A stretch of DNA of 64,000 bases from sequence record OR776998. One strand, written 5' to 3'. The notes under the pieces were generated by a model, which was given only the letters and a program-made list of their open reading frames with translations, was not told where the DNA came from and ran no database searches. Source of the DNA: Escherichia phage YX22. Numbering within the stretch: position 1 is the first letter of the stretch; each line of letters opens with the position of its first letter. Made by a program: the position numbers and the translations under genes. Below are positions 1,838-43,698 of this stretch, one piece after another.

Positions 1838-1848
1838 GGGGTATTTAG
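1838..1848 (-). promoter_or_regulatory. late-promoter-like motif CTAAATACCCC upstream of uvsW
   Basis: Minus strand GGATCACTAAATACCCC about 25 nt before ATG 1816. Confidence 0.45.
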
Positions 1849-2591
1849 TGATCCGGCCAGACTCCGTTTTGTTCTTTATCCATGCGATGATACAGACGAA
1901 CACGCTCAAACATCTTTGTCAGAATGTCATCACGGTTGAACTCAATGACGGTTGGTAGAGGGGAAGACTCGTTGGCGATCACGTTGATGAGGCGGGTGAT
2001 CTTGACGCCGAACATCTGCTGGAACATGACCGAATATAAGCATAGCTGGATACTGTAATCCTCGATCATGCCCCGCGTCTTCATGGTGTTCGATGTCTTG
2101 AAGTCGATGACAGCAGGTTTACCCTCATAAACCCCGATAAGGTCTACACGACCTGCAAGACCAAGCACCTCGCTATATAATGGGATCTCCTGAGCATAGA
2201 TCTTTGTCATCTTGTTCAGGTAAGGGAACAGCTGCTTGAACATGAACATGTATTCGCCAGCCGCTTCCAACACTTCTTTCATTGGGCGGTTCTTTAGATA
2301 CAGTTCACACGCAAGGTGCAGCTTCTCCCCTCGGTCAGCACAGCGCATGGTCTCAAGGTCAGCGGCCTCTGCGCCCAGCTTCTTCCTCCAAGACTCAAGC
2401 CATTCATGATCTCCAGTGCGTCCCAGCATAGTCGTGACGGATGTCAGTTTTACACCAGACGGTGAAACGTAATGACGACCATTCTCCGTCGTAACACACT
2501 CCAGTTCCTTGTAAGGAAGTTCGTATTGCTGGAATGTGTAATGACGGTTTTCGAAGTCGTTCAGCTTGCGTAGATCTTGGAGGGATGCCAT
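1845..2591 (-). CDS. PD-(D/E)xK nuclease, RecB/Cas4-like
   Basis: 248 aa; D..IDFKTS then QLCLY resembles nuclease motifs II/III and QxxxY; GAGGA SD before ATG 2591. Confidence 0.5.
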   Translation of the reverse strand: MASLQDLRKLNDFENRHYTFQQYELPYKELECVTTENGRHYVSPSGVKLTSVTTMLGRTGDHEWLESWRKKLGAEAADLETMRCADRGEKLHLACELYLKNRPMKEVLEAAGEYMFMFKQLFPYLNKMTKIYAQEIPLYSEVLGLAGRVDLIGVYEGKPAVIDFKTSNTMKTRGMIEDYSIQLCLYSVMFQQMFGVKITRLINVIANESSPLPTVIEFNRDDILTKMFERVRLYHRMDKEQNGVWPDH

Positions 2592-2606
2592 TATGTGTGA
2601 TCCTCG

Positions 2607-3059
2607 TTATACACCATCAATATATTTTCTCCACTCAATAGCATTTTTCACTTCGTATCCCAGTTTGTTCAGGCGATCCAAACAAGTCTCTATGAACTTG
2701 ACTTTTGCTTTTTGTTCTTGTAACAGAACAGACAACTCCACATAGTCATCGTCTGCTTTGACCCATGTATCTAGGTCAGACTTCAGGGGGCGAACCTTCA
2801 GGGGGCGCTCTGCGTAGATGTTAGGGGGTAACTCCCCTGCATAGTAGCGGCGCAGATAGAGATCGATCTGGCGGAAGCGCCCGTTGAGAAATTCAAGATA
2901 ACGCCCCTCGCGCAGATAATGCCGCTGTACAGCCATCCAAGAGCGCCCGATTTTCAGTGAGATCTGGTCAAGGTTCATGTCTTCTGGGTCCACTGTGATC
3001 AGCGGCTCCAGTTCGTTCATGATGTCCTCGGTAGCCATTGTCTGTAGTTGTTCTTTCAT
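2607..3059 (-). CDS. UvsY-like recombination mediator (tentative)
   Basis: 150 aa, adjacent to uvsW as in T4; loose similarity (RRYYAGE, C-terminal amphipathic region) to recalled T4 UvsY. Confidence 0.45.
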   Translation of the reverse strand: MKEQLQTMATEDIMNELEPLITVDPEDMNLDQISLKIGRSWMAVQRHYLREGRYLEFLNGRFRQIDLYLRRYYAGELPPNIYAERPLKVRPLKSDLDTWVKADDDYVELSVLLQEQKAKVKFIETCLDRLNKLGYEVKNAIEWRKYIDGV

Positions 3060-3089
3060 AAAATATCCCAGCTTGTCAATGTCATAGAA

Positions 3090-4281: not shown

Positions 4282-5010
4282 TTACTTCAGCGCGTTCTTC
4301 AGATTATCGGAACCAATGCTGTTGATGACACCTCCGGCGCAGATATCTTTCGCCCACTCTGATATCACGTTGGCAAAAGAGAAGTTAAGACACTTACCAA
4401 CCATGTCTTGGATATGGGCTAACTCTGCTGCAATACCGTTCGTGATGTCTTGAGCAATAGAGGCTACTGATGCGACAGCAGTGTCGATGGCTTGAGTAAC
4501 TTCAGCAGCCAGTGCCCGAATAGCATCAAGACCAGCACTGACACCCTGAGCTACCAACTCAGCCAGCTCATTCATCTTGTTTGTGATAGTTGTGAGAACA
4601 CTTTGCATGGTGTTGATCCACTGTTTGCCGAGGTTCTGAATAACCCCAAATGCATTATTGATCAGATCACAGTTGTTCGGTTCTCGACCTATAGACTTCA
4701 GGGCGGACTTATACGACACAGATGTACCGATGCGGGAATATGCCTCGTTCACTGACTGGTCGCCATAGTTGTTCAAAGTAGTGATGCTGTTGTTGGCTGA
4801 GTTGAACATTGCTGTAGATTCGTTGAGTTTGGCTGTAGTCAACCCACCTGCCGTCAGCGCTTCCTGAATCTGCGCATTTCCGGTGTTAGCCAGTGACGCT
4901 GTAGTCGCCTTACCACTGGTGATTAACCCCTGTGAGGCGCTGCTGAGGGACGGGAGAGGATTGGTAAAGGCGTTGCCCTGTGATAGGGCGTCATAGATCT
5001 GTGCGTTCAT
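4282..5010 (-). CDS. late Ser/Thr/Asn/Ala-rich protein (capsid decoration or tail candidate)
   Basis: 243 aa from ATG 5010; late motif CTAAATACCCCC about 25 nt upstream; track start 5052 lies upstream of that motif. Confidence 0.5.
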   Translation of the reverse strand: MNAQIYDALSQGNAFTNPLPSLSSASQGLITSGKATTASLANTGNAQIQEALTAGGLTTAKLNESTAMFNSANNSITTLNNYGDQSVNEAYSRIGTSVSYKSALKSIGREPNNCDLINNAFGVIQNLGKQWINTMQSVLTTITNKMNELAELVAQGVSAGLDAIRALAAEVTQAIDTAVASVASIAQDITNGIAAELAHIQDMVGKCLNFSFANVISEWAKDICAGGVINSIGSDNLKNALK

Positions 5011-5033
5011 AAGAAAATACCCCCATGGATGAT

Positions 5034-5046
5034 GGGGGTATTTAGG
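5034..5046 (-). promoter_or_regulatory. late-promoter-like motif with following inverted repeat
   Basis: Minus strand GATCCCTAAATACCCCCATCATCCATGGGGGTATTTTCTT then ATG 5010. Confidence 0.45.
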
Positions 5047-5048
5047 GA

Positions 5049-10481: not shown

Positions 10482-11333
10482 TTAGCCGTTGATGCCGAAG
10501 CGACGATTATAGTCGGCCAACTGACGCTTGATAGATTCTTTCAGCTCTTTGTCTGTTTCATCTTCATCGTCATCTTCATCGCCTTCTTTCTTAGGCTTTT
10601 TGCCTTCGGCTTTAACATCTTTGTTGTCGTCATCGCCGTCTTTTCCGCCGACTTTGTCCTGGAAGTCATCGTCATCGTCATCGCCTTCTTTCTTCACGGA
10701 CTTACCTTCTACCAGGTTGCGGAAGGTGTGTACGCGGGAAGCGAATTCGCTTTCGGTGGTGAACTGCACCGCTTCCAGCAGATTGACAACCGTTGCTTTC
10801 TTGGTATCGACCATACCTTCACAGATACGGGCGATCACAGAGTCACGCAGAGTCGCATTCGCGGCTTCTTTGATTTGACGGTTTTCGCTTTCAGCAGCCG
10901 CAGCGCGTTGTTCTGCTTCGGCCAGGCGGGCAGTCAACGCAGCGATCTGGCCGTTTTCGTCGGTGGCAAAGTTAATACCAGCTTCTTTCAGAACACCAGT
11001 CAGGCCAGTCAGCAGGTTTTCAGCCGCTTCACGTTTGATCTGAGCATCGATTGCAGGAGCGTTCTTGTTAGCCCACTCTTCTACAACAGCATTCAGGAAG
11101 CCATCGACTTTCGTCGCGATTTCCATCAAGTGAGACTCTTTCAGCTGAGCAATCTCAGCCTGATGAGCTTCAACCAGACGCAGGCGCTCAATATTGGCAG
11201 CGTTTTCGGTTTCTTGAATAGCGGTCAGGCGAGCGGCTTCTACTTTAGATTCCAGCAGACCAGACACTTTATCCAAGAAGTCGGTGCTGAGGCCGTTAAC
11301 GCCCTCAAACAGTTTTTGCAATTCAGGTTTCAT
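10482..11333 (-). CDS. gp22: prohead core scaffold protein, gp22-like
   Basis: Coiled-coil-rich with acidic Asp/Glu low-complexity tail; between gp21 and gp23 as in T4. Confidence 0.7.
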   Translation of the reverse strand: MKPELQKLFEGVNGLSTDFLDKVSGLLESKVEAARLTAIQETENAANIERLRLVEAHQAEIAQLKESHLMEIATKVDGFLNAVVEEWANKNAPAIDAQIKREAAENLLTGLTGVLKEAGINFATDENGQIAALTARLAEAEQRAAAAESENRQIKEAANATLRDSVIARICEGMVDTKKATVVNLLEAVQFTTESEFASRVHTFRNLVEGKSVKKEGDDDDDDFQDKVGGKDGDDDNKDVKAEGKKPKKEGDEDDDEDETDKELKESIKRQLADYNRRFGING

Positions 11334-11378
11334 GATTGTTTCCTTCTGAACGATTTTCAGTATTTAGTGAGGCTGAAT

Positions 11379-15690: not shown

Positions 15691-17586
15691 TTAAGAAGCG
15701 GCTACGATACCACCACCGGATTCGATCTCACTGAATTCCATGTCTGGACGCACGGAAGCAAAATCAAGATACACCCAATTTATACTGTATTCTGGTTTCA
15801 GCCAGATACCCGCGACCATGGTGTTGGCTGCGATAACATCAGCGGTGTTGTTGTCCTCGTCACACTTCACCATCCCGTCATAGATCGCGCCCATGTTGGC
15901 CAACTGGCGGATATATGGGCGGACAGCGTTGCTGAACAACCCACGAGTGAATGCATCGTTGTTCTCACCAAGGTAGTATTTGGCGATGGCTGCGATGTTC
16001 TGCTCTGCCATAATGAACAGACCACGAACGTTGATGCGGTCGAACGCAGATGGGCGGGTCAGACCAGTCTTGTCGCCGTACAACACGATGCCTTCGTTGG
16101 AGAAGGTGACGATGCTGTTTATCTGGTTGCGATACAGCACAGCACGCTCATCAGAAGACGCAGACCACGCCATTCGATTATAGTTGTTGTATTTACCACG
16201 GTTGTGGAACGCCGGAGATTTGTAGATACCCGCGATTTCAATGCTTCGCGCCCAAACACCTGCGGTGCCACCACAAGCCGGAATCCAACGCATTTTGTCG
16301 TTGTACTTGTCGTACACATACGCCCAGTTGTCATCCATGAAGAAGTAGGAGGAGTCGCGAACAAGGCTTTCACGCCAGGCCACAACATCATCCATCTCAC
16401 GGCCACGGTTTCCGACGACCGTATCGCGAAGAGGAGACACGAAGGACACTGTGTCTTTACGCTCAGTGGACAGGTCGATCAGTGCCTGCTGCTCAATCAG
16501 TTCTTCACAGAAACCGAACACTGGCTTGGCATCATACGCTTCGGCGTTGTTCAGTGCCTGGATAGCCGCAACACGGTTCCCAGTGTAATCGTCTACACCA
16601 CCTTCGAGTTCAATCACACCAGCAGCCAGGGTAGTGGCGAAGGTGTACACCCAATTTGAGTTGCCGTTGATCACGTCTTTGAAGTACGCATTGGATCCAT
16701 CAGATTTCTTAGAACCCTGAGCGGTCTGCACCAGTTCATACTTCTCGATGATCGTACCGGAAGCACCAACAGTGGTGACGGCAGCGGTAGCAGTCAGACC
16801 ATTCGCGTCTGGAACAATCGCAGTCGCAGCCTGAGGACCGATTGCTTTGTGAGTGACGGTGACGGTGTTGGACTTCACGACAACAGAAGAATACACGTCA
16901 GTCAGAGCCGTCAACGCAGTGCCGATTTTGGTCGCCAGGGTGGCCGGGGTGTCAGTGTCAGTGTACGCCACGTCTTCGCCAGCAACAGAGATTGAGCCTG
17001 CACCAGTAGCCGTACCGGATACAGAGATACGATCAACCTGACCAACAGCACCGGAAGAATCTGTGATGCGACCTACTTTGTCAACGATGGCGATATGGTA
17101 CTCGCCATCCTGCGGAGCATATGCGAAGTTGTTACGGAATTCCCAGGTCGGGAACAGCGCAGCGTCACAGATGTTCACAGCAATGTCGTTACCCAGAGAG
17201 CCAGCATAGCGGCCTGTCCAGGTAATAGACGCAGATGGGGACGCAGTTTCGAAGTCTAGTTTGTTGCGGATAAGGATTGCAGTCTGACCTTTGGTTACAG
17301 CGTTGCGTGCCGCCGGACCGACCACACGGGTCACCCATGCAACAGAGCTGTAAGACAGGAAGTCAGCAATCACCAAGAAGTCGGTGGCAGTTGCATCGTT
17401 TGGCTTGAAGAATTTCTTCACCAGACCAGTTTCGCCACCAGTGACCAACACAGGGAGTTCTGCTTCACCCCATTGGAATTTGCCGACAGTCGCACCCTGA
17501 ACAACAACGGATGGAGACGTCTGAAGCGTGGCATCACGCTCAGTCCACTGTACGGACGGCGCAACGCTGAAGCTTTGAGTTGCCAT
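15691..17586 (-). CDS. gp18: tail sheath protein, gp18-like
   Basis: 631 aa from ATG 17586 (AAGGAA SD); size and position match T4 gp18; late motif upstream. Confidence 0.85.
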   Translation of the reverse strand: MATQSFSVAPSVQWTERDATLQTSPSVVVQGATVGKFQWGEAELPVLVTGGETGLVKKFFKPNDATATDFLVIADFLSYSSVAWVTRVVGPAARNAVTKGQTAILIRNKLDFETASPSASITWTGRYAGSLGNDIAVNICDAALFPTWEFRNNFAYAPQDGEYHIAIVDKVGRITDSSGAVGQVDRISVSGTATGAGSISVAGEDVAYTDTDTPATLATKIGTALTALTDVYSSVVVKSNTVTVTHKAIGPQAATAIVPDANGLTATAAVTTVGASGTIIEKYELVQTAQGSKKSDGSNAYFKDVINGNSNWVYTFATTLAAGVIELEGGVDDYTGNRVAAIQALNNAEAYDAKPVFGFCEELIEQQALIDLSTERKDTVSFVSPLRDTVVGNRGREMDDVVAWRESLVRDSSYFFMDDNWAYVYDKYNDKMRWIPACGGTAGVWARSIEIAGIYKSPAFHNRGKYNNYNRMAWSASSDERAVLYRNQINSIVTFSNEGIVLYGDKTGLTRPSAFDRINVRGLFIMAEQNIAAIAKYYLGENNDAFTRGLFSNAVRPYIRQLANMGAIYDGMVKCDEDNNTADVIAANTMVAGIWLKPEYSINWVYLDFASVRPDMEFSEIESGGGIVAAS

Positions 17587-17625
17587 AATCTTATTCCTTC
17601 TCTGTAGAGTTTCGCTCAATTTGAA

Positions 17626-17640
17626 AGATATTTAGTGATC
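17626..17640 (-). promoter_or_regulatory. late-promoter-like motif upstream of tail sheath gene
   Basis: Minus strand GATCACTAAATATC about 45 nt before ATG 17586. Confidence 0.45.
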
Positions 17641-21237: not shown

Positions 21238-21888
21238 TTATTCTCCAAAGTCGATCTTCATATCGTCTGTTGCAAGCCCCTTCTCAAGATCATCTGCTAA
21301 AGCATTGTCAGTCTGTAGAGAAGAATCCTTGTACACGTCCGGTTCGTTCTCTTCGTCCAAGATGGACAGACGTTTGTCGATATCGTCGATCTCCGGAACG
21401 CCCGTATCGAAGTTTTCGTTGCCGTACTGGAACAACGTGCACGGCAGAGAGAACGTATACCATTTGCCAAATTGCATGAAGTCTTCATCGTTGTTCGGGT
21501 TGTTGACCTTGAAGATCTTGTTCGCCAGTGGTAGATAGATCAGGTCACCTTCCTGAGGTTGTTGTTCAATCCCAACACCGTTGCCTATCACCTCGGCAAA
21601 TCGGCGGCGCGAGATAGAGAACGTCACTTCGTCTTGCAATTGGATACCCCCAAACTTCTCCCACATCTGGGTGTTGAAGCCCTGATAATCCTGCATGTAC
21701 GCTTCGATGTCGAACGCCTGGTCGAATCTGTGGTTAGCATCGTTGGTGATAGGAAATTTTTCAACGATGGAACGGGGTATATACTTGATGTCTATCCCGC
21801 GCAACTCAATCATTTCCTGTACCAAATCTTCAATCAGCTTCTGTGTGCCTTGGTGATTGGTGGCGTTGAAATATTTAGAAGTGGCCAT
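21238..21888 (-). CDS. gp14: neck protein, gp14-like
   Basis: EGDLIYLPLANKIFKVN matches T4 gp14 EGDLIYFPMDNSLFEIN; GAGGGTA SD; late motif upstream. Confidence 0.7.
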   Translation of the reverse strand: MATSKYFNATNHQGTQKLIEDLVQEMIELRGIDIKYIPRSIVEKFPITNDANHRFDQAFDIEAYMQDYQGFNTQMWEKFGGIQLQDEVTFSISRRRFAEVIGNGVGIEQQPQEGDLIYLPLANKIFKVNNPNNDEDFMQFGKWYTFSLPCTLFQYGNENFDTGVPEIDDIDKRLSILDEENEPDVYKDSSLQTDNALADDLEKGLATDDMKIDFGE

Positions 21889-21904
21889 ATCGATACCCTC
21901 AATT

Positions 21905-21917
21905 TTGAAGGTATTTA
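21905..21917 (-). promoter_or_regulatory. late-promoter-like motif upstream of gp14
   Basis: Minus strand CGACTAAATACC then GAGGGTA SD and ATG 21888. Confidence 0.4.
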
Positions 21918-26500: not shown

Positions 26501-28388
26501 CCGCATCGCGTTGACCACCGTCCAGAGTGAAGTTAGAGGTGACGTCAGCGCCATTTGCGTTCTTCACGCTGATCAGCTTGTAACCATCATGGTTCCCAAG
26601 TTGTGCGCTGGCTGTCGCAGTAAACGTCACAGTCTCGGTGGCTTCGGTAACAGTCTTGGTCTTGATCGTCGCTGTGGTGCGGACCATCAATGCCAACAGG
26701 TTGATAGACTGGTTGGCGTACCCCGCGCCCAGGGAAATCTGCAGTGCTGAACCAACCGGAGTACCAGCCAGAGACAGTCCCGAAGAGATATCAAACTGAG
26801 CTGCAGTGCCATCTGCTTTCGCTGCGGAGTACAGTGAAAACTCAGGGCTGAAGCTGTAACCCAGAGGAGCAGAAATTGAGCCTGCACCAGCAGCGTTCAA
26901 CGTGATCTTGTTTGACCGCAGGACAGTGTAGTTGATGTCGATGGTGCCTGTAGGTGCTAGAGTCTTCACACCAAATACAGGCAGAGGGAAGATCAGGTCA
27001 ATTGCTGAACTCTGACTGAACTGATTGGACTCCAGTTCGCAGGAGAACATCGTTGTACCGCTTTCTTCATAAGCGACTTTGGTAACAGTACCCATGTCCC
27101 CAGTCACAACCAGGTCGCGCATATACAGACGGAATTCAGTACCAGAGCGCTCTGCCGAAATCAGCAGGGCGGTGGCCTGCACATCGCTGGATGCGTTCAG
27201 GAACTTGTAGCGGATTGTGCGGGAGACAACCGGAACCCCTTTGGAGTTCTTGGACACCAGATAGTTGCCAGTCGAAACAGCCACAGGGTTGTTGTTCAGG
27301 ATATCAGTGTCACGGGCTTTGTCAATTATGACCAGCTCTTCGCCGAGGTTTTCGATACGACGACCACGAACGTAGGAAATGCCTGGCTTCATAACCGCCA
27401 CGAATTTGCTTTCATCACCACCTTCAGCCGGAGTGTAAACGCCGCCGTTGTTGTTCTGTTTCAGATGTTCGCGCAGGTCGATCTGGTGAGTAGAGACGTT
27501 GTAGTCACCATTGGTCTCATAGGTACGCTGAGCCATGGCGTCTTCGAGGATGTTGTACGTTGACTGGGTGACCATGGACTGAACACGACCGTCTTTCACC
27601 TTCGCCAGTTCAACGAAGTCGGCCACTTCTTCATCATAACCGTAGCGAGACAACACGAGGTCGACGCGCAGGCGATGCGCACCAGGGGCTTTAGAGTTCG
27701 GAGTACCCTGAGCATTGGAGAACAGACTTTCATCTTCTGCTTCGGTCACGATTGTTTCTGTAACTTTGAAGCCAATGCGGTGAGATGTAGAGTTCGATGC
27801 GTTGTCTACGATCAGAGTGGCTGGTTCAACATCCAGGAACATACCACGAACGAAATAAACACCCTTTGTCATGCGAGCGACAATCGAACCGCCAACAGTA
27901 TCGGCCACACCATAGCCGACACGGATGAAGTTATCGTTCACGTCATAGGTGTTGAAATATAGATTGTCGCCAGCTTCGAAACCGTCTGAACTACCACTCT
28001 CAGTCATCTCTAAGATGGCATACATTGTATCTGGCTCAGCCGGATAACGTTCCAAGGACAGGACGCGTGCTTTCGCATTGTTGTCCTTGCCCAGAACATA
28101 GAGTTCGGAGATACCTTCCAGATCAGTGAACTCACTACCACCAGCCAGAGTGAACTTCATGGACACAGCAGTGTTGGTGATCGTTAGGCCGCCGGGGATA
28201 ACCATTGAACCGTCTTTGAACAGATGGTTGCCAAGTTTCTCCAGTTGATCCTGGAAGATGGTCTGCATCTGGTTCAGTTCACGCGTCTGAACTTTGATAG
28301 GTGCCGGACGGAATAGGATGCGCGAAAAACGCTTCTCTGGATTCCAGTCATCCCAATATGGGCGGCGGTTGAGGTTCATTTCTTGCAT
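23550..28388 (-). CDS. very large virion protein (1612 aa), baseplate/tail component candidate
   Basis: Single uninterrupted ORF; start at ATG 28388 with GGAGCA SD; late motif ACTAAATATC upstream; no recognisable motifs. Confidence 0.65.
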   Translation of the reverse strand: MQEMNLNRRPYWDDWNPEKRFSRILFRPAPIKVQTRELNQMQTIFQDQLEKLGNHLFKDGSMVIPGGLTITNTAVSMKFTLAGGSEFTDLEGISELYVLGKDNNAKARVLSLERYPAEPDTMYAILEMTESGSSDGFEAGDNLYFNTYDVNDNFIRVGYGVADTVGGSIVARMTKGVYFVRGMFLDVEPATLIVDNASNSTSHRIGFKVTETIVTEAEDESLFSNAQGTPNSKAPGAHRLRVDLVLSRYGYDEEVADFVELAKVKDGRVQSMVTQSTYNILEDAMAQRTYETNGDYNVSTHQIDLREHLKQNNNGGVYTPAEGGDESKFVAVMKPGISYVRGRRIENLGEELVIIDKARDTDILNNNPVAVSTGNYLVSKNSKGVPVVSRTIRYKFLNASSDVQATALLISAERSGTEFRLYMRDLVVTGDMGTVTKVAYEESGTTMFSCELESNQFSQSSAIDLIFPLPVFGVKTLAPTGTIDINYTVLRSNKITLNAAGAGSISAPLGYSFSPEFSLYSAAKADGTAAQFDISSGLSLAGTPVGSALQISLGAGYANQSINLLALMVRTTATIKTKTVTEATETVTFTATASAQLGNHDGYKLISVKNANGADVTSNFTLDGGQRDAAYYLSNLISSTGAISGTFTVVYQYFAHSSGDFFTADSYSSINYPDIPNYVSSSSGTVYGLADSLDFRPKITSGASDTDMVRPNTAIILDAEYYLPRIDAVYLADNGVFNVARGVSSNNLASPAIPDNGMRLYELMIPPYTANIDDIQIRTIDNRRYTMRDIGKLETRISNVEYYTSLSQLESSAMSQQVFDPITGNPRFKNGIAADPFKDFRLIDDLSADWVGSIDTDNGRLRPFVQQNAIDLTPVGWNNVQDGMVVCNYTREISVRQDYATTTINVNPYAVFNWEGFLKLNPTTDYWFENYYVTPRVINETINTRGAIKEGSVYGTWRTVSVSERVWEPHGAGGVWWGYRYRTTVSTRDVTTYTYTDKTTTTLTGEQIVETQVIPYMRKTNINFEATGLRPFTRVYPFFSGRDVSAYCTPNGGALGGALNTDANGNIKGVFAVPQNETIKFNTGDNVFRLTDSPVDSKSADDTLTNAEAVHKSFGKKQGIQKTYVNTRVLGYTATKSTENKTETVEVAKWKDPIAQSFMVATNIGGEYIEGIEVFFSTKSRDIPITLEIREMSNGLPATTVVTRKTLNPSEVSVSTDSSVPTMFKFDYPVYLQAQTEFAIVLLANTQDYNAYIAEMGKKNLLTNEFIAKQPYTGVFFTSSNGTTWTPNQTADMKFRVYRCNFSAGSNIVTFDAKVGPKIRPLGLNTVKCVNGSSTVTVYAPGHGLTAGESVTLSGLTGGCGFTPEQLNAQHTVTDATFTTFKFVLSSNADSDGQIGGEAASFLGNYLVDMFYASVTNSALEGSVLKLEYRYRDATSNSFSDWVEFESDTDVSLPTEGIYRQVGDFQVRATMTRNESNVYTAPMIDGDDFTIIFNTYGVDPFEDVFSYVTKDIGFDNPCTTLKQYFGAMLPSQSSMTVQVKLLRAGQEMDNVAWETVTPTSPLVNDGSAFFEYEYDKTVDSTNPFVGLKIRLLVRGNRIAPPSFKDFRLIALA

Positions 28389-28420
28389 TTTGATGCTCCA
28401 TCGATAGGTGCCATTATAGA

Positions 28421-28436
28421 GATATTTAGTATACAA
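28421..28436 (-). promoter_or_regulatory. late-promoter-like motif upstream of 1612-aa protein gene
   Basis: Minus strand TATACTAAATATCTC about 35 nt before ATG 28388. Confidence 0.45.
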
Positions 28437-36600: not shown

Positions 36601-36703
36601 AATAAACGACTTCGTCTTCTTTGACACCGAAATTTCGAGCGATAGATTGTTTGTTAACTTCTATGGAAGTGGAGCCGCGTGGTTGATTGAATTGAGAAAT
36701 CAT
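33677..36703 (-). CDS. tailspike 3 (1008 aa)
   Basis: Shares the ~150-aa N-terminal module with tailspike 1 at near identity; own late motif. Confidence 0.8.
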   Translation of the reverse strand: MISQFNQPRGSTSIEVNKQSIARNFGVKEDEVVYFTAGIDLSGFKVIYDESTQRAYSLPSGIVSGTTAVSLNEQAILAHSAGSVDLGELAVSREEYVTLPGSFDTGATLNVKNELLTHVAGKYRWEGEFPKTVPAGSTPGSTGGTGTGAWVSVGDASLRSQLSDPDGATKYPDLQIARWRDTFDPRGWNAKGDGVTDDTSALNGVLNAAPVGQKINGNGKTYKVTSLPDISRFVNTRFVYERIPGQPLYYASEEFVQGELFKITDTPYYNAWPQDKAFVYDDVIYCPFMASDRHGVSRLHVSWVRSGDDGQTWTTPEWLTDLHPDYPTVNYHCMSMGVMRNRLFAMIETRTLASNALVTCELWDRPMSRNYHPTGGITKAANQPVAVITIPEHGLFAGDFVNFSNSGVTGVSGNMTVTSVIDRNTFTVTTPNQQAFDQNNSTSRWHMGTSFHESPWRKTSLGLIPMVTEVHSFTAINNDSFMMGYHQGDVAPREVGMLYFPDAFNNPGLYQKRRIPADYEPDAAEPCVKYFDGVLYVLTRGTRSDRLGSSLHRSHDLGMTWESLRFPNNVHHSTLPFAKVGNELIIFATERADNEWEANVPDQRYFTSYPRTFYTRVNLDTWNLDNTQWVNITDQIYQGGIVNSGVGVGSVVVKDSYIYYMFGGEDHLNPWTYGDNSAKDPFKSDGHPSDLYCYKMKIGPDNRVSRDFRYGAVPDRAVPVFFDTNGVRTVPAPMEFTGDLGLGHVTLRASTSNNIRSEMLLEGEYGFIGKSVPTNNPAGQRTIFCGGEGTSSSTGAQITLYGANNTASRRIVYNGAEHLFQTADVKPYNDNAIALGGPSNRFTTAYLGSNPIVTSNGEKKTEPVVFDDAFLDAWGDVHYIMYQWLDAVQLKGNEARIHFGVIAQQIRDVFIAHGLMDENSTDCRYAVLCYDKYPRMTDMVFSHNEIVEHTDEEGNVTTTEEPVFTEVVIHEEGEEWGVRPDGIFFAEAAYQRRKLERIEARLSALEQK

Positions 36704-36709
36704 GATAAT

Positions 36710-36780
36710 ACCCCATAAAGGATGACCAATATGGGGTATTTAGGCTGAACTAATAAATTTATGAACAAAGGTATAACAAG
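36710..36780. repeat. conserved tailspike promoter/leader cassette, copy 2
   Basis: See copy 1. Confidence 0.6.
36734..36748 (-). promoter_or_regulatory. late-promoter-like motif upstream of tailspike 3
   Basis: Minus strand AGCCTAAATACCCCATATTGG..TATGGGGTATTATC ATG. Confidence 0.5.
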
Positions 36781-36805: not shown

Positions 36806-39787
36806 TTACGGGTAAGCACTCTCGAACTTACAGAACCAAGTCGTTCCTCCATCAGTTGTTGACAACCTAAAAACTTGTGTTCCAGCTGCTGTCAAAGATG
36901 GGGTACTACTTGCTAATATAACATTTGCACCAAATGTTATTGTTTTAGATGTTGTTGAATAGACAGCCAAAAGAACCTCAACATAACCAATTAGTGTATT
37001 TGTTAATACTGCTGGAGTTATTGTTACATCTCCTGTAACTGTAGCTGCGATGTAAGATGCGTCTGAAAAGTCAGGCGCATAACTTGCTGTTGGCGTCTCG
37101 AACTTTGGATTTCTTACCAATACAGGAACTCCAACATTTTTCCTGAAAATTGTACTATTGCAAACCATATCATACTCTATACCAACAAAATTCTTAGCTG
37201 CGAGTATGTTAGTAAATGTCTGGTCCGCAGAGTAAATATGAGTTATCAGCCTTGCCACCCATGCTGGTGAGTTTGAGTTTTCACACTCAATGAATGAGCA
37301 GTTGGTACTACCAACAGCGAATGGCATTAATGATGCCGTATATGAAGATAGCCCTGCGTCATTGAATGCATTCATATTCACAAAAGTCTGGCATTGAGAG
37401 AACGTATTACCGGTGGCTCCACCATCAATAAAAAAGCCAATCCCGCCGTTAATATAACCATCTACAGGATCTAAATTAGCTTTCGTGTAGTCCCATTTTG
37501 ATGGAGAATCTGCAAAACATTGATTGAAGGAATTGTTTATTGAGTTCTGTACAACAAAGCAGCATTTCATCCTTGAGTTCTGGTCAGTGACTGTATCGTC
37601 ATACATGCCCCAGTTGTGCACCTTACCAATTCTGTTATTACCACCACCACGAACCCAGGTACCAAATCGGAAATAACGACCTTCACCCATGCTAACCTGA
37701 TGATCGCTACCTTCAACAATGTGGGCTGTGCTGAGCGGATTAGTTGGTTTTAATACACCAACAGCATAAAACTTCAATAGGTGCACACCCATACCGCCAG
37801 CAATATGGATGCCATGACCATCAACGTTGGCTACGTAAATGCCTTCTAACTTGTTAGCATAGCCATCGGATATCTTAAACCCATTAACAGTTTTTGCACG
37901 GGCATCAATTAATAAGTTGCTGATATGCCCAGCGTATTGATTACCCGTCCCTTTATCGCATTTAACAGCATAGCCAGAGGAGTCTGCAACGAAGTCATCG
38001 GTGAGGTACACCCCACCGAAACCAGCATCAATGCTAACATCTCCGTGAATGTGTAGTGTCGTACTGATAGGATATTTCTTCCCATTCAGCCTGATAACTT
38101 TGCTTACAGTGTTAGGTTGTAGCCAGTCAGGATGGTTAGCAGCACTACTTGGTGCATGTTCTAAACCTGTTAAAGCTGCCGCAGCATCAATCGCATCCTG
38201 TAATGATGGATACATATCCGGGTTGACATTTATAATTTTCTTAAGCGCATTGCCAACAGTACCAGTTTCGTAATCAATTGACTTATCAAAACCTGAAAAA
38301 CCTGCTCCTGTAGGTTTAGCCAATTCTGACTTCAATGAAGCATCACCAACACTAATCCATGCGCCAACACCAACGCCGCCTGTTGTCATAAGAGTTGAGC
38401 CAGGAGCAACGGTTTTAGGAAGTGTACCATCCCAACGATACTTTCCATCAGTATGGGTGAGTAATTCATTTTTAACATTGATGACAGCACCAGAATCAAA
38501 TGTCCCAGACAATGTAACATATTCTTCACGAGATACAGCCAATTCCCCGAGATCTACAGAACCCGCTGAATGCACAAGTACAGCGGAAGAACTAAGACTG
38601 ACAGCAGTAGTACCAGGGACAATATCAGCAGGCAAGGGATAAGCCCTTTGCGTCTCCTTGTCATAAATAACTTTATACCCACTTAACGCAGCACCAACAC
38701 TAAAATAAACGACCTCTGTATCTTTAACATTGGTTACACGAGCAACTTCCCGCAAAGTATAATCAATTTGATTATAGATGTTTGGTGTTCCATTGATAAT
38801 TACAACAACTTCATCCTCTGGTTCCAGTTCTTGCGCAAGAGTGATTTTACTGGTTAATGGATCGAATGTGAATCCCAGATTTTTATACTGGCGACTTCCG
38901 TTTATATCAATGGCCGGAACATCATCAACAACGACGTCCAACGTGATTTCGGTTTCACCGCCAATCGCTGAACCCCCATTATAGACCCAGGTAATCGTAG
39001 AAGAACTAGAACCACCGCCATTACCCAATTGAATAGGAGTATATTCAATCACCTGAAGTTCTGTGTTGGCTGGCAAAGAAGGGCTGAAAGTGATTACATT
39101 CCCATCTAGTGAATATTTGGATTCCGCAAGACGTTTTCCGTCAGCATACACGTCCACGATTGTTGGTGGGGTATTGAGAGCGACAGTACTTGTTTCAGAC
39201 GCCAAAATTTTTGTAAAGATTTCACGACTGTAGACGCGACCTTGGCCAAGACCGACGCCGGATGTAATAATCCAACCTTGTTCAGGTCCAGACCAAGTGA
39301 ACGTTGCTGATACGTTATCAGTTGTTATAGCCATGTCTTCAGTGGAGCCATACAAATTATTTCCAGAAGGAGACACAGTCAATGGGTAAGTGGCAAATTT
39401 CCCATAAGCATCACAAATAGTAACGGAATCCCCAATACGCGTAGGGGAAGGGAGAACCACTGTAGATGCCCCTGTGGTATTATTAATGAGATAGCCTCGC
39501 CCTTCAGTGAGCGTTGCCGTAGAGGCATGCGGAAGGACTTCCCAGCGGATACCACCGCCACCCAGCGGCAACCATCCACCATTTTCATAGAAGCCCTCAA
39601 ATTCGTCGGAGTCGGCATTGTAGCGAACGGAAGACGGGAGTCCTGCGCTGGCATTACCCTCGGGTAAAGTCAGGACAGCATCTGGTCCATGCTCAATCGT
39701 ACCCGTGTTGAGGAGACCAGCCAAAGTAGACTGCTCTTCAGCCGCCAGACCGAGAGGGAAAACAGGCTGTGTTGGTTTATTAGCCAT
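36806..39787 (-). CDS. tailspike 4 (993 aa) with ~340-aa N-terminal extension
   Basis: Conserved module is internal (after residue ~350); start at ATG 39787; own late motif. Confidence 0.8.
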   Translation of the reverse strand: MANKPTQPVFPLGLAAEEQSTLAGLLNTGTIEHGPDAVLTLPEGNASAGLPSSVRYNADSDEFEGFYENGGWLPLGGGGIRWEVLPHASTATLTEGRGYLINNTTGASTVVLPSPTRIGDSVTICDAYGKFATYPLTVSPSGNNLYGSTEDMAITTDNVSATFTWSGPEQGWIITSGVGLGQGRVYSREIFTKILASETSTVALNTPPTIVDVYADGKRLAESKYSLDGNVITFSPSLPANTELQVIEYTPIQLGNGGGSSSSTITWVYNGGSAIGGETEITLDVVVDDVPAIDINGSRQYKNLGFTFDPLTSKITLAQELEPEDEVVVIINGTPNIYNQIDYTLREVARVTNVKDTEVVYFSVGAALSGYKVIYDKETQRAYPLPADIVPGTTAVSLSSSAVLVHSAGSVDLGELAVSREEYVTLSGTFDSGAVINVKNELLTHTDGKYRWDGTLPKTVAPGSTLMTTGGVGVGAWISVGDASLKSELAKPTGAGFSGFDKSIDYETGTVGNALKKIINVNPDMYPSLQDAIDAAAALTGLEHAPSSAANHPDWLQPNTVSKVIRLNGKKYPISTTLHIHGDVSIDAGFGGVYLTDDFVADSSGYAVKCDKGTGNQYAGHISNLLIDARAKTVNGFKISDGYANKLEGIYVANVDGHGIHIAGGMGVHLLKFYAVGVLKPTNPLSTAHIVEGSDHQVSMGEGRYFRFGTWVRGGGNNRIGKVHNWGMYDDTVTDQNSRMKCCFVVQNSINNSFNQCFADSPSKWDYTKANLDPVDGYINGGIGFFIDGGATGNTFSQCQTFVNMNAFNDAGLSSYTASLMPFAVGSTNCSFIECENSNSPAWVARLITHIYSADQTFTNILAAKNFVGIEYDMVCNSTIFRKNVGVPVLVRNPKFETPTASYAPDFSDASYIAATVTGDVTITPAVLTNTLIGYVEVLLAVYSTTSKTITFGANVILASSTPSLTAAGTQVFRLSTTDGGTTWFCKFESAYP

Positions 39788-39820
39788 TTCAAATACCCCT
39801 AAATGTGTTCGTTTCATCTA

Positions 39821-39835
39821 GGGGTATTTAGTTTT
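39821..39835 (-). promoter_or_regulatory. late-promoter-like motif upstream of tailspike 4
   Basis: Minus strand AACTAAATACCCCTAGATG..TAGGGGTATTTGAA ATG. Confidence 0.5.
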
Positions 39836-41030: not shown

Positions 41031-41032
41031 TT

Positions 41033-41887
41033 TTAACTCCTTGAACTTTCTAGGAATACAGTAAACCCAGCAGGATGGAAATGCTGACGGAAGACGCGGT
41101 CAAACACACCTTCAAAATCAGATACGTTGCCAGGAACTCTTATCACATACGTGAATTCATCATAGTAGTAATCGTCACGCATTCCTGTCGCGCCGTCACA
41201 TTCAAAGTTGTCATCCAGGCCACCAATTGCTTCCTTGGGATAATACACACTCACTGGGCAACCAAAGTAAATCCAGAAGAACAATTCAATCGCTTTCTTC
41301 GTCCCGCGAATGCGATAAATGTGTTTAAGTAACTTCAACCAGCGTACATGGTCCAGTGTCCGGCGTTCAGTTCCCTCGACATACACAGAGAGTGTGTCTC
41401 CGTCTGAAGTCACCAAACTGTCCGAACCAACTGGCACAAACTTCCCGAACTCCAGGAAGGACTTATCAACCGTTCTCTGGAATCCAAAATCAGCATACCA
41501 ATCGTCGATGCGTTCGTTCTTGTCTTCCATTGAGATTAATGGTCGACCGTCCACGTCCAGCAAATCTTCGAAGTCTAGCGCCATCATGTTCTCAAACGTG
41601 CGCGTCAGGAACTTGTCTTCCAAGAAGTCTTTGGCCTCAGTACCTGGCGTCTTGCGCTTCTTGATGTCAATCAACTGCTCAATAGGAGACTGATCCGTAT
41701 TTGGGTTCACCCAACCACCAGTGTCTGCCAGATACGCCAAGATCTCCTCTTCGGTGAATCCCTGCTGGCGATACAACCAGTTGAAGAACGTATCCATAAA
41801 CTCGATGAATACTGGGAATTCATTCTGGTAAAACAATGGGGTTTCATATTTCACCCCATTGTGTCCGTTATTAAGATCTTTGGACAT
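41033..41887 (-). CDS. baseplate-associated protein (by position)
   Basis: 284 aa between gp6 homologue and tail fibre; GGAGGTG SD. Confidence 0.45.
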   Translation of the reverse strand: MSKDLNNGHNGVKYETPLFYQNEFPVFIEFMDTFFNWLYRQQGFTEEEILAYLADTGGWVNPNTDQSPIEQLIDIKKRKTPGTEAKDFLEDKFLTRTFENMMALDFEDLLDVDGRPLISMEDKNERIDDWYADFGFQRTVDKSFLEFGKFVPVGSDSLVTSDGDTLSVYVEGTERRTLDHVRWLKLLKHIYRIRGTKKAIELFFWIYFGCPVSVYYPKEAIGGLDDNFECDGATGMRDDYYYDEFTYVIRVPGNVSDFEGVFDRVFRQHFHPAGFTVFLESSRS

Positions 41888-43649
41888 AACGCACCTCCGG
41901 CTCCACAGTTACAGCACCGATGCGGAGCACCTGATTCTGTGTGGCCTGAATGTTCTGGTCAAGACCGTCTGGAGACACAATTATTGTCACACCCTCAGTG
42001 TTGTAGTTGGATACTATGATACGCTGGAGTTCAACAACGCCAGTCGCATAATCAACCTTTCCAACAGCTTGTACCAGATATTCCTTGGTCGTGTCTGTTG
42101 TACTCACCTTGTACATATTCAGGACACCACTGACGTCGCGTATGTAGTAAGTGAATTCGACCTCGGCCGGAAGCGGCTTAAACCCACTGATACGCACAGA
42201 ACCAGACGCAATCGAGCGCCCATAATCGAACGTGAAGCTGTCCAGTACCCCATAGTCTGGCTTGAAATGGCGCTTATACTTCACAGAAGTGATGTTTGAC
42301 ACTATCGATCTGTCCATGTCGGTGATTGCCGACTGTAACTGCTCTTTATCGAACAGTTCGTCGAATCCTTCTAGATTCCCCAAGCCCCAGTTGACAACAC
42401 CGTTCTTCACGACTGTCTTCAACTGCTCTTCGGTATAGGACGTGGAAGTCGGATCCCAGAACACGCGGGTGATGACATCAACATAAGTCAGTTCAGCGTC
42501 GACAATCTTGGGTGTGATCGTGCCCACATTGTACTTGTCTAACGTCGCCACGATATCTGCCTTCTCAGCGTCCGAGAGCGCCTCACCAACAGAAGGTATC
42601 ACAGCAATGTAAACGTATCCGGAGTCGGGCGGAGAGAGCGTGTCGCCGCCATATGCTTTGGCGCGGGAGACGTTAGAGAACAGACGCTCGGTCAACACAG
42701 CATAATCGACTTCGGCCACTGCCGCACCCTCAGCCTGATAAGCCAGCGGAGCAAGACGCTTGATGTCCTCAATGCTCTCTGGGTCCTTACCACCGGAAGA
42801 ACGTTCTGACACCAGCTCAACATCTACAAGGTTGAATCCCCCGATGGAAGACGCGGAGGACAAGGCAGTGATGTCATTGCCGTCTGCACCAGCTGTCTCC
42901 AGATACTGGAGGTACACGATGTTCCCGTCTTCTACTCGCTTACAGATATACCCATCACCGAATTCGAACGTGTACATCCCGTCCAACCCCAGCTCAACGA
43001 AGTAGAGTTGCGCATACTGGCTCAAATCGAACGGGCTGACATATCGTGAGAAGGTAGACCGCACGTCAGATGTCTCAGATTCCTGCACCTGCACCACCAT
43101 ATGGTCGATGTCCACGGAAGAAGATGGGATCACATAGGTAGAGATCGCGCTGCCTTCCACATCATAGGACTTGTACAGCCAGTTACCCTGTATGAGTTTG
43201 ATGTTCTCGAACTTGTAAGAGCCGTCTACAAGAGAGGCACTCACAGGTTGGTCAACCGTGAAGTTATAGGATTTTCCATCCTTCACCCCAATGAACATCG
43301 CGCGGCGATCCATCACAATCGTGTCTGGAGCCGTGCTGGCGTCATATGGAGTGACTGTGACGTTTGCGTACAGGTACGCTGCCTGGTAGTTGTGAGGGGT
43401 GTAAGATAAGAACCCCGCCGCCAGACCGACATTAGAACGCTGTTGAGCAGAGTGAAGATGGCTTTCGCCATTCAACATGTTCTGCATGAACCCGATAGAG
43501 TTGGCATCCGAGGCCAAGATACGCACGATTGCACTGAGACCAGAACCTTCAAAGTCATAATCCTTGAAAGTTGGATCAGCTTTCATGCGCTTCTTGATAA
43601 GATACTCGAAAGCCCTGACATCGAGTGAAGGGACTGTTTGCGTGGCCAT
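41871..43649 (-). CDS. gp6: baseplate wedge protein, gp6-like
   Basis: FKDYDFEGSGLSAIVRILA and GGKDPESIEDIKRLAP match T4 gp6 FLDYDFEGSRLNVLCDLLA and GGGDPEDIERIRELG; start at ATG 43649. Confidence 0.75.
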   Translation of the reverse strand: MATQTVPSLDVRAFEYLIKKRMKADPTFKDYDFEGSGLSAIVRILASDANSIGFMQNMLNGESHLHSAQQRSNVGLAAGFLSYTPHNYQAAYLYANVTVTPYDASTAPDTIVMDRRAMFIGVKDGKSYNFTVDQPVSASLVDGSYKFENIKLIQGNWLYKSYDVEGSAISTYVIPSSSVDIDHMVVQVQESETSDVRSTFSRYVSPFDLSQYAQLYFVELGLDGMYTFEFGDGYICKRVEDGNIVYLQYLETAGADGNDITALSSASSIGGFNLVDVELVSERSSGGKDPESIEDIKRLAPLAYQAEGAAVAEVDYAVLTERLFSNVSRAKAYGGDTLSPPDSGYVYIAVIPSVGEALSDAEKADIVATLDKYNVGTITPKIVDAELTYVDVITRVFWDPTSTSYTEEQLKTVVKNGVVNWGLGNLEGFDELFDKEQLQSAITDMDRSIVSNITSVKYKRHFKPDYGVLDSFTFDYGRSIASGSVRISGFKPLPAEVEFTYYIRDVSGVLNMYKVSTTDTTKEYLVQAVGKVDYATGVVELQRIIVSNYNTEGVTIIVSPDGLDQNIQATQNQVLRIGAVTVEPEVRYVQRS

Positions 43650-43686
43650 GATAATCTCCATCACCTGAGTTTGAATATGGTGTTGA

Positions 43687-43698
43687 AGATATTTAGCC
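43687..43698 (-). promoter_or_regulatory. late-promoter-like motif upstream of gp6
   Basis: Minus strand TGGCTAAATATC about 40 nt before ATG 43649. Confidence 0.4.

What the first reader, a model, noticed from the sequence alone, without database searches (positions are those of the whole stretch)
1838..43698. Late-promoter-like motif CTAAATACCCC, often paired with a complementary GGGGTAT leader
An A/C-CTAAATA-C/T-C motif lies 25-45 nt upstream of at least ten minus-strand starts (uvsW, genes at 3602 and 5010, sheath, gp14, the 1612-aa gene, tailspikes 2/3/4, gp6). It resembles the T4 late promoter TATAAATA. In several cases the motif's AAATACCCC is followed 10-20 nt later by its complement (T)ATGGGGTAT(TT) just before the ATG, where it doubles as the SD, so promoter and leader are one palindromic unit. 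GATC immediately precedes the motif in three cases.
Basis: partly seen in the sequence, partly recalled or inferred. Interest (0 to 1): 0.55.

Follow-up and report, generated by a model that had tools for sequence, protein, structure and literature searches.

The report
Late promoters embedded in ribosome-site-masking hairpins
In this ViI-like (Ackermannviridae) phage the already-published late-promoter-like box CTAAATAcCcc often sits inside one arm of a hairpin whose other arm is the ribosome binding site of the next gene, the same trick phage T4 uses to keep its lysozyme gene silent until late in infection.

Summary
CTAAATAYC occurs 10 times in the window against 0.49 expected. Eleven of the 13 CTAAATA copies lie 24-43 nt before a gene start.

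The window is an Ackermannviridae phage, 98.4% identical to Escherichia phage RPN242. That relative encodes gp55-like and gp33-like proteins and a sliding clamp.

The motif itself is not new. CTAAATAcCcc is published as a regulatory motif of this family, and the LIMEstone1 GenBank record marks these boxes as putative late promoters.

The palindrome is also real. At six window sites the bases from TAAATA onward pair with the Shine-Dalgarno region (-10 to -21 kcal/mol; z -4.5 to -8.1). The gp6 leader does so more weakly.

By T4 promoter geometry (box at -13 to -6), late RNA should start just after CCCC and so lack the 5' arm. Read-through RNA would keep the arm and mask the ribosome site. T4 genes e, soc, 49 and I-TevI work this way, and the T4 e leader has almost the same arms.

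In the relative, 9 of 30 such boxes carry a strong hairpin, including the endolysin and resolvase genes.

No transcript ends have been mapped, so the mechanism is inferred. Verdict: a new member of a known kind, of modest interest.

The parts
39785..39831 (-). Late-promoter box CTAAATACCCC (39831-39821), hairpin and SD GGGGT for the tailspike-4-type gene (ATG 39787). Arms are TAAATACCCCTAGATG / CATTTAGGGGTATTTG.
   Evidence: -21 kcal/mol, z -8.1. The predicted late RNA folds at -0.9. Conserved in Kuttervirus, Limestonevirus, Klebsiella, Serratia and Erwinia phages, with substitutions mostly in the loop.
36701..36743 (-). Box, hairpin and SD for the tailspike-3-type gene (ATG 36703). Arms are AATACCCCATA / TATGGGGTATT.
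   Evidence: -19.6 kcal/mol, z -5.9. The same leader, 95% identical, stands before an unrelated ORF in Erwinia phage Bue1.
33322..33367 (-). Box, hairpin and SD for the tailspike-2-type gene (ATG 33324).
   Evidence: -16.3 kcal/mol, z -5.2. A bidirectional terminator lies upstream at 33650-33669.
5008..5045 (-). Box, hairpin and SD for the 242-aa gene (ATG 5010). The arms are 12 bp, the loop 5 nt, and the tail T-rich.
   Evidence: -17.2 kcal/mol, z -4.9. The upstream small genes are co-oriented behind early-type promoters at 7196-7221 and 7457-7482, and only one weak terminator-like site (6825-6804) lies between.
21886..21918 (-). Box CTAAATACCTT, hairpin and SD GAGGGT for neck protein gp14 (ATG 21888).
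   Evidence: -10.2 kcal/mol, z -4.5. Conserved in LIMEstone1, Klebsiella and Serratia phages.
43647..43696 (-). Box CTAAATATCTT, weaker hairpin and SD GGAG for baseplate wedge gp6 (ATG 43649).
   Evidence: -11.6 kcal/mol, z -2.7. Compensatory U-A to A-U change in Bue1 and U.G to C-G in Klebsiella/Serratia phages.
1816..1848 (-). Box CTAAATACCCC before uvsW (ATG 1816). Only a weak, imperfect pairing with GGGAGATTT. The TAA of the box is the stop codon of the upstream nuclease gene.
   Evidence: -5.9 kcal/mol, not significant.
11333..11367 (-). Box CTAAATACTGA before the prohead core gene. No SD-masking hairpin.
17586..17635 (-). Box CTAAATATCTT before the tail sheath gene. No significant hairpin.
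   Evidence: Annotated as a putative late promoter at the orthologous LIMEstone1 site.
28386..28429 (-). Box CTAAATATCTC before the 1612-aa VriC-like gene. No significant hairpin. Terminators lie just upstream.
49618..49660 (+). Box CTAAATACCCCC before a 152-aa plus-strand gene (ATG 49658). No hairpin.
59937..59975 (+). Perfect T4 consensus TATAAATA, hairpin (AATATCCTCGC / GCGAGGATATT) and SD before a 55-aa gene.
   Evidence: (-15.9 kcal/mol, z -6.3).

Best explanation
The NCTAAATA boxes are the -10-type promoters read by host RNA polymerase carrying the phage's gp55-like late sigma factor.

At roughly a third to a half of them, the pyrimidine-rich bases just after the box act as an anti-Shine-Dalgarno mimic. 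These bases are usually CCCC, but also CCTT, TCTT or TCCTC. Together with the AAATA of the box they pair with the purine-rich ribosome binding site of the downstream gene (GGGGTATTT and its variants).

RNA that enters the gene from upstream contains both arms. It folds into a -10 to -21 kcal/mol hairpin that hides the ribosome binding site, so it is poorly translated. At two sites with short loops and T-rich tails it may also be partly terminated.

RNA started at the embedded late promoter begins about 6 nt after the box, after CCCC. It lacks the 5' arm and has a free ribosome binding site. Each such gene is therefore expressed only from its own late promoter.

Shown here: the motif, its placement, the hairpins, their conservation, and the presence of the late-transcription proteins in a near-identical relative.

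Inferred: the start-site position, the existence of read-through RNA, and the effect on translation.
For: Motif enrichment and placement.
- Window.
- Genome-wide in the 98.4%-identical relative RPN242: 16 of 20 CTAAATA copies lie 24-43 nt before annotated starts, although 92% of the genome is coding.

Late-transcription proteins in that relative.
- gp55-like (phrog_234, 3e-52) and gp33-like (phrog_254, 3e-20) proteins.
- The sliding clamp.

Promoter geometry.
- The T4 late box occupies -13 to -6 (PMC2988020). This places CCCC at -5 to -2, with the 5' arm upstream of +1.

Hairpins.
- Six window leaders (5045, 21918, 33367, 36743, 39831, 59938) fold with z -4.5 to -8.1.
- Removing the first 13 nt collapses the fold to between 0 and -5.7 kcal/mol.
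- The 3' arm carries the only SD-like element, 7-9 nt before the ATG.

Association across the genome.
- Strong SD-masking hairpins occur at 9 of 16 CTAAATA leaders against 17 of 178 other genes (Fisher p = 2e-5).
- Several of those 17 have TTAAATA, ATAAATA or TATAAATA boxes in the 5' arm. They include the endolysin and the RuvC-like resolvase.

Site-specific complementarity.
- Mean ddG is -6.1 against -3.3 +/- 0.5 when 5' arms are swapped between sites. None of 300 permutations reached the observed value.
- The arm extensions differ between sites (CCCCATA/TATGGGG, CCCCTAG/CTAGGGG, CCCCCAT/ATGGGGG) and are always complementary.
- G.U pairs occur in the stems.

Conservation.
- Hairpins are kept in Kuttervirus, Limestonevirus, Taipeivirus and Erwinia phage Bue1.
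- There is one compensatory change and one wobble-to-Watson-Crick change.
- Leaders are 85-96% identical where third codon positions are 53-63% identical.

Precedent.
- T4 genes e, soc, 49 and I-TevI work this way (PMC3014915).
- The T4 e leader TATAAATACCTTC...GGAGGTATTATG gives -13.3 against -2.8 kcal/mol in the same pipeline.

Read-through context.
- Co-oriented upstream genes abut the box with no predicted terminator at 39831 and 36743.
- At 5045, early-type promoters lie upstream at 7196-7221 and 7457-7482, with only one weak terminator-like site (6825-6804) between them and the box.
Against: - No 5' ends or expression timing are available for any Ackermannviridae phage in the searched library. 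The start-site position is extrapolated from T4.
- T4 late promoters are AT-rich just downstream of the box, whereas these have CCCC. The promoter may therefore behave differently.
- CTAAATACCCC also occurs without a usable partner (49618, weakly 1848). CCCC is therefore not explained by pairing alone.
- Tailspike 2 has a strong terminator upstream and gp6 follows a divergent region. Read-through may be rare there, yet the hairpins persist.
- The tailspike genes lie downstream of other late genes, so the T4 rationale of blocking premature early expression does not obviously apply to them.
- True covariation within orthologous families is thin, at one double change, because the leaders are almost invariant.
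- Sense and antisense folds are similarly stable (-16.4 against -14.4), so strand specificity is only weakly supported.
Confidence: 0.58

Rival explanations
1. The hairpins are mainly intrinsic terminators, or 3'-end stabilisers, for the upstream transcription unit. The next promoter is packed into the terminator stem only for economy of space.
For: The 5045 site has a 7-bp GC-rich core, a 5-nt loop and the tail TATTTTCTT. The endolysin site of the relative has a comparable stem, also with a 5-nt loop and the tail TATTTTCTT. In both, A-tract / stem / T-tract symmetry resembles bidirectional terminators.
Against: Most loops are 13-19 nt and the tails are T-poor (TATTATCA, TATCTTCA). The terminator scan flags none of these hairpins, yet it finds classical terminators elsewhere in the same regions. 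The 3' arm is always the SD at correct spacing, which a terminator does not need. The T4 e homologue of this design is known to act on translation.
Confidence: 0.15
2. Transcription starts upstream of the 5' arm, or the box is not the -10 element. The hairpin is then part of the late mRNA leader, where it stabilises the RNA or makes translation depend on a factor or on temperature.
For: No start sites are mapped. The CCCC tract departs from the AT-rich T4 pattern. Loops as well as stems are strongly conserved, which would suit a factor-binding leader.
Against: The box matches gp55-type consensus sequences. Its spacing to gene starts is tight at 24-43 nt. There is no other conserved element upstream. 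A -17 to -21 kcal/mol hairpin over the SD of abundant virion proteins would be costly. The near-identical T4 e arrangement has mapped late 5' ends inside the structure.
Confidence: 0.12
3. The inverted repeat works at the DNA level. It would be either a binding site for a dimeric regulator or a recombination junction for swapping tailspike cassettes.
For: A 55-nt direct repeat including the box precedes both tailspike 2 and 3. The same leader stands before unrelated ORFs in different genera.
Against: Arm spacing varies from 4 to 19 nt, which is incompatible with a fixed dimer site. Stems contain G.U pairs. The same design occurs at non-tailspike genes such as neck, endolysin and resolvase.
Confidence: 0.08
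4. The pairing is a by-product. The promoter happens to prefer CCCC and ribosome sites happen to be G-rich, so complementarity arises without selection.
For: CCCC occurs at boxes without hairpins (49618, 1848). Swapped arms still give a mean ddG of -3.3.
Against: The observed ddG exceeds all 300 swaps. The arms extend 3-6 bp beyond CCCC/GGGG with site-specific complementary sequences. GGGGT is an unusual SD used at these sites instead of GGAG. There is a compensatory change in Bue1.
Confidence: 0.05

Closest known systems
Phage T4 gene e (lysozyme) leader, and likewise soc, 49 and I-TevI: a late promoter inside the 5' strand of an SD-sequestering hairpin (PMC3014915)
   Same: A TAAATA-type box is followed at once by a pyrimidine tract that pairs with the SD. 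T4 e has TATAAATACCTTC...GGAGGTATTATG, and here the arms are CTAAATACCCC...GGGGTATT..ATG and CTAAATACCTTC...GAGGGTAT..ATG. The hairpin is lost from RNA started at the box. In the relative the same design precedes the endolysin, a junction resolvase and an intron-type homing endonuclease, which are the functional counterparts of T4 e, 49 and I-TevI.
   Different: It is much more frequent here: about 9 of 30 candidate boxes, against 4 named cases among about 50 T4 late promoters. It is used on tailspike, neck and baseplate genes that follow other late genes. C replaces A at -12, and CCCC/GGGG replaces the CCTTC/GGAGG arms. Loops are longer. Nothing has been tested experimentally.
Published Ackermannviridae ('Viunalikevirus') regulatory motif CTAAATAcCcc and the LIMEstone1 'putative late promoter' annotations
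   Same: The string is identical. PMC7283392 lists CTAAATAcCcc as one of two family motifs. The LIMEstone1 GenBank -10 signals coincide with the TAAATA of orthologous sites.
   Different: Those sources, as far as I could read them, give the motif only. They do not describe the complementary SD arm or its consequence. The original genus paper (Adriaenssens et al. 2012) was not available to check.
gp55-dependent late promoters of T4-related phages (TATAAATA; Aeh1 variant (a/g)CTAAATA)
   Same: An 8-bp -10-type box with no -35 element, gp55/gp33/clamp homologues present, and a position before virion genes.
   Different: The segment downstream of the box is GC-rich instead of the AT-rich segment described for T4.

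Membership tests
gp55-type (T4-like) late promoter | 8-bp TATAAATA-like box in the -10 position | tested here: met
   NCTAAATA matches 6 of 8 positions and equals the Aeh1 variant consensus. One window site (59937) is a perfect TATAAATA.
gp55-type (T4-like) late promoter | No conserved -35 element | tested here: met
   Information content is at most 0.6 bit at every position upstream of -12 in the 11 window sites.
gp55-type (T4-like) late promoter | Genome encodes gp55, gp33 and sliding-clamp homologues | tested here: met
   These are not in the window itself. In the 98.4%-identical RPN242 genome they are gp095 (phrog_234, 3e-52), gp060 (phrog_254, 3e-20) and gp126, the sliding clamp.
gp55-type (T4-like) late promoter | AT-rich segment immediately downstream of the box | tested here: not met
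   CCCC or C/T-rich bases occupy -5 to -2 at most sites. T4 description from PMC2988020.
gp55-type (T4-like) late promoter | Late, replication-coupled RNA 5' ends about 6 nt downstream of the box | not testable with these tools
   No start-site or RNA-seq study of this family was found.
T4 e/soc/49/I-TevI-type translational gating | Stable hairpin whose 3' strand contains the SD and/or AUG | tested here: met
   Six window leaders fold with z -4.5 to -8.1. Mean SD unpaired probability is 0.28 against 0.52 for other genes (p = 2e-4).
T4 e/soc/49/I-TevI-type translational gating | Late promoter lies in the DNA encoding the 5' strand, so late RNA lacks it | tested here: met
   The 5' arm spans AAATA plus the next 4-8 nt. 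With the box at -13 to -6, at most 2-4 arm bases are transcribed. Predicted late RNA folds at 0 to -5.7 kcal/mol. The geometry is met, but the start site itself is inferred.
T4 e/soc/49/I-TevI-type translational gating | Longer transcripts from upstream promoters run into the gene | tested here: inconclusive
   Co-oriented abutting genes with no predicted terminator stand at 39831 and 36743. At 5045 only one weak terminator-like site (6825-6804) lies between the early-type promoters and the box. Terminators or a divergent region lie upstream of 33367 and 43696. No RNA data.
T4 e/soc/49/I-TevI-type translational gating | Translation is repressed on long RNA and active on late RNA | not testable with these tools
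   Needs reporter or toeprint experiments.
Ackermannviridae motif CTAAATAcCcc | Exact motif string in an Ackermannviridae genome | tested here: met
   Six exact copies. Family assignment. Motif source is.
Intrinsic (rho-independent) terminator | GC-rich stem, 3-8 nt loop, and a T-run directly after the stem | tested here: not met
   None of the promoter hairpins is reported by the scan. Loops are mostly 13-19 nt. Only 5045 comes close.

The most novel reading that the evidence does not exclude
The promoter, anti-SD arm, loop and SD form a portable expression-and-insulation cassette that is nearly invariant. It is kept at 85-96% identity across genera, even in front of unrelated ORFs, for example the tailspike-3-type leader in Erwinia phage Bue1. 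On this reading it has two roles. It makes every receptor-binding gene an autonomous unit expressed only from its own promoter. It also supplies the homology at which tailspike modules are exchanged between phages. The conserved loops might additionally bind a phage regulator.
Probability: 0.15. Interest if true: 0.55.

Novelty: new member of a known kind. Interest (0 to 1): 0.3.

Why it matters
The result gives a concrete, testable rule for late gene expression in Ackermannviridae. This phage family is used in biocontrol and therapy, and its transcription signals were described as unidentified or only listed as motifs. Genes carrying the hairpin should be silent on read-through RNA and expressed only from their own late promoter.

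For engineering, for example swapping tailspikes to change host range, the 40-50 nt leader would have to move with the gene.

Biologically, it shows that the T4 gene-e device is not a peculiarity of a few T4 genes. It is a widely used design in a distant branch of T4-related phages. That remains an extension of a known principle, not a new one.

Tried and rejected
- Literature. Searches for the motif with 'late promoter' mostly returned poxvirus and primer hits. The CBA120 paper says the late signal was unidentified in 2011. The AG3 paper used TATAAATA with one mismatch. The genus paper that I recall as the origin of CTAAATAcCcc could not be opened. No start-site study of the family was found.\n- Covariation. 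RNAalifold on orthologous leaders gave little, because the leaders are almost invariant and MAFFT misaligned the Bue1 3' arm. Comparison between paralogous sites and a swap test were more informative.\n- Terminator reading. It was tested with the consensus scan and largely rejected.\n- Strand specificity. The sense versus antisense fold comparison was only weakly discriminating.\n- Rfam. It found only two tRNAs.\n- PDB. A sequence search with the gp55-like protein found nothing.\n- Distant relative. Vibrio phage D533 keeps CTAAATA before some structural genes but has no CCCC or hairpin.

Full report
**What the window is.** The tailspike region and the first 24 kb match ViI-like phages. The best match is Escherichia phage vB_EcoM-RPN242 (Ackermannviridae, Aglimvirinae), at 98.4% identity over 100% of the 24-kb query. 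Its annotation gives the gene names used here. I fetched the whole RPN242 genome as a stand-in for the parts of the phage outside the window.

**The motif.**
- CTAAATAYC occurs 10 times against 0.49 expected, and the exact CTAAATACCCC occurs six times.
- Of the 13 CTAAATA copies in the window, 11 have their last A 24-43 nt before a start codon and two are intragenic.
- It misses the prohead core gene (11367) and a plus-strand gene (49618).
- It wrongly includes 3602. The box there has a mismatch, and the ATG is internal to the tail-completion gene.
- In RPN242, 16 of 20 CTAAATA copies precede annotated starts by 24-43 nt, although 92% of the genome is coding.
- There is no conserved -35 region.

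**Is it a late promoter, and is that new?**
- T4 late promoters are an 8-bp TATAAATA box at -13 to -6 with no -35 element. An (a/g)CTAAATA variant has been reported for Aeromonas phage Aeh1 (PMC2988020).
- RPN242 encodes a gp55-like late sigma factor (phrog_234, 3e-52), a gp33-like co-activator (phrog_254, 3e-20) and a sliding clamp.
- The promoter reading is therefore well supported by context, but it is not new.
- PMC7283392 lists 'TTCAAT[N14]TATAAT and CTAAATAcCcc' as the two regulatory motifs of this family.
- The LIMEstone1 GenBank record marks the TAAATA of the orthologous sites as 'putative late promoter'.
- From memory, the motif comes from the 2012 'Viunalikevirus' genus paper, which I could not open.
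- Earlier papers said the signal was unidentified (CBA120) or searched with TATAAATA plus one mismatch (AG3).
- One difference from T4 stands out. T4 has an AT-rich segment after the box, whereas here it is CCCC or another pyrimidine tract.

**The palindrome.**
- The folds are -10.2 to -21 kcal/mol, with z -4.5 to -8.1 and none of 200 dinucleotide shuffles as stable.
- The gp6 leader is weaker (-11.6 kcal/mol, z -2.7).
- The leaders at 1848, 11367, 17635, 28429 and 49618 have no significant hairpin.
- The 3' arm holds the only Shine-Dalgarno-like element (GGGGT, GAGGGT or GGAG), 7-9 nt from the ATG.
- The arms extend beyond CCCC/GGGG with different but always complementary sequences: CCCCATA/TATGGGG, CCCCTAG/CTAGGGG and CCCCCAT/ATGGGGG.

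**Statistics across the relative's genome.**
- Strong SD-masking hairpins occur at 9 of 16 CTAAATA leaders against 17 of 178 other genes (Fisher p = 2e-5).
- Several of those 17 turn out to have TTAAATA, ATAAATA or TATAAATA boxes in the 5' arm. They include the endolysin, a RuvC-like resolvase, gp2 and the head completion protein.
- Counting every NTAAATA box 15-50 nt before a start gives 30 sites. Nine of them lose at least 8 kcal/mol when the first 13 nt are removed.
- The mean loss is 6.1 kcal/mol, against 3.3 +/- 0.5 when 5' arms are swapped among sites. None of 300 swaps reached the observed value.

**Conservation.**
- The same leaders and hairpins are present in twelve IMG/VR contigs, in LIMEstone1, in a Klebsiella phage, in Serratia phage IME250 and in Erwinia phage Bue1.
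- In the tailspike-4 leader, substitutions fall mostly in the loop.
- In the gp6 leader, Bue1 has a compensatory U-A to A-U change. The Klebsiella and Serratia phages turn a U.G pair into C-G.
- Leaders are 85-96% identical where third codon positions of the gene behind them are 53-63% identical. Bue1 carries the tailspike-3-type leader at 95% identity in front of an unrelated ORF.
- The distant Vibrio phage D533 keeps CTAAATA before some structural genes, but without CCCC or a hairpin.

**Mechanism.**
- With the box at -13 to -6, CCCC is at -5 to -2 and transcription should begin just after it. Late RNA therefore lacks nearly all of the 5' arm, and its predicted fold is 0 to -5.7 kcal/mol.
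- RNA arriving from upstream keeps both arms and masks the ribosome site.
- This is the documented T4 mechanism for genes e, soc, 49 and I-TevI. [quoted passage not shown]
- As a positive control I folded the T4 e leader, TATAAATACCTTCTATAAATACTTAGGAGGTATTATG. It gives -13.3 against -2.8 kcal/mol, with arms (AATACCTTCTA / TAGGAGGTATT) almost the same as those here.
- The relative uses the design on its endolysin, on a junction resolvase and, in LIMEstone1, on an intron-type homing endonuclease inside the DNA polymerase gene. These mirror T4 e, 49 and I-TevI.
- For 5045 the T4 logic fits well. Co-oriented small genes behind early-type promoters (7196-7221 and 7457-7482) run into it, with only one weak terminator-like site (6825-6804) between them.
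- For the tailspike genes the upstream RNA is itself late. The purpose there would be insulation of each gene rather than timing, and this part is speculative.

**Rivals.**
- A terminator role is plausible only for 5045 and the endolysin site, which have short loops and a TATTTTCTT tail. The other loops are 13-19 nt, and the scan flags none of the hairpins.
- A hairpin inside the late leader would require a start site upstream of the box, against the known geometry.
- A DNA-level dimer site is unlikely given variable arm spacing and G.U pairs.
- Pure coincidence is excluded by the swap test.

**Limits.**
- No transcript ends or expression data exist for this family in the searched literature. 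Start site, read-through and translational effect are all inferred.
- Within-family covariation is thin.
- CCCC also occurs at boxes without a partner, so it may have a promoter role of its own.

**Verdict.** The motif is already published. The palindromic promoter-leader unit is, as far as I could find, undescribed for Ackermannviridae, but it is a clear further instance of the T4 gene-e device, used here much more widely. It is a new member of a known kind, of modest interest.

Noticed in passing
window 43953-43978 (+), 55051-55076 (+); one-mismatch copies at 7196-7221 (-), 7457-7482 (-), 15637-15662 (-), 51092-51117 (-), 60160-60185 (+), 62649-62674 (+): The second published family motif, TTCAAT-N14-TATAAT (early-type promoter), is enriched: 17 matches with up to 2 mismatches against 5.6 expected. 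The copy at 15637-15662 lies in the 5' arm of an SD-masking hairpin before the GIY-YIG homing endonuclease gene. The promoter-in-hairpin design is therefore not limited to late boxes.
   Followed up: partly
window 1850-1853, 5047-5050, 17637-17640 (minus strand): GATC sits at exactly -17 to -14 (GATC-N-CTAAATA) in 3 of 11 sites, against a per-position GATC frequency of 0.0044. In relatives another promoter has GATC three bases further upstream. At 5045 and 17635 it overlaps the TGA stop of the upstream gene. Its meaning is unknown (a Dam site?).
   Followed up: partly
window 33350-33404 and 36726-36780; 28519-28656 and 33517-33654: A 55-nt direct repeat (98% identical) includes the late box upstream of tailspikes 2 and 3. 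A 138-nt repeat (92% identical) lies in the non-coding stretches after tailspike 1 and tailspike 3. These are possible recombination junctions for tailspike exchange.
   Followed up: partly
window 33385-33624 (+), truncated copy 28489-28626 (+): A 79-aa ORF lies on the opposite strand between tailspike 3 and tailspike 2. It matches only the C-terminal third of phrog_17779 (unknown function, 3e-36). A 45-aa copy shares its last ~33 residues apart from one V/I difference. This is probably a gene remnant. It is not annotated in RPN242.
   Followed up: partly
window 10399-10470, 14275-14320, 14874-14920 (minus strand, upstream of the major capsid, portal and tail tube genes): These late genes lack CTAAATA but have CTAAGTA (capsid) or CTAATTA (portal, tube) about 30-40 nt before the ATG. 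These may be variant late boxes. The Vibrio phage gp6 gene also has CTAAGTA upstream.
   Followed up: no
window 1845-1847 (minus strand): The TAA inside CTAAATA is the stop codon of the upstream nuclease gene, so gene end and next promoter overlap. The same overlap occurs at one further box in RPN242.
   Followed up: yes
window 30129-30411, 36229-36511, 38332-38614: A 283-nt repeat (78% identical) lies inside the coding regions of three tailspike genes. It presumably encodes shared N-terminal or linker domains.
   Followed up: no
window 52005-52011 (+) and 5248-5254 (-): TTAAATATGCCC stands 39 nt before the DNA polymerase gene, and the orthologous LIMEstone1 site is annotated as a putative late promoter. 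CATAAATAATTT stands before a 56-aa gene. Neither has an SD-masking hairpin.
   Followed up: partly
window 46805-46878 and 47135-47220 (+): Two tRNA genes lie in the divergent region upstream of gp6. They were the only Rfam matches in the window.
   Followed up: no
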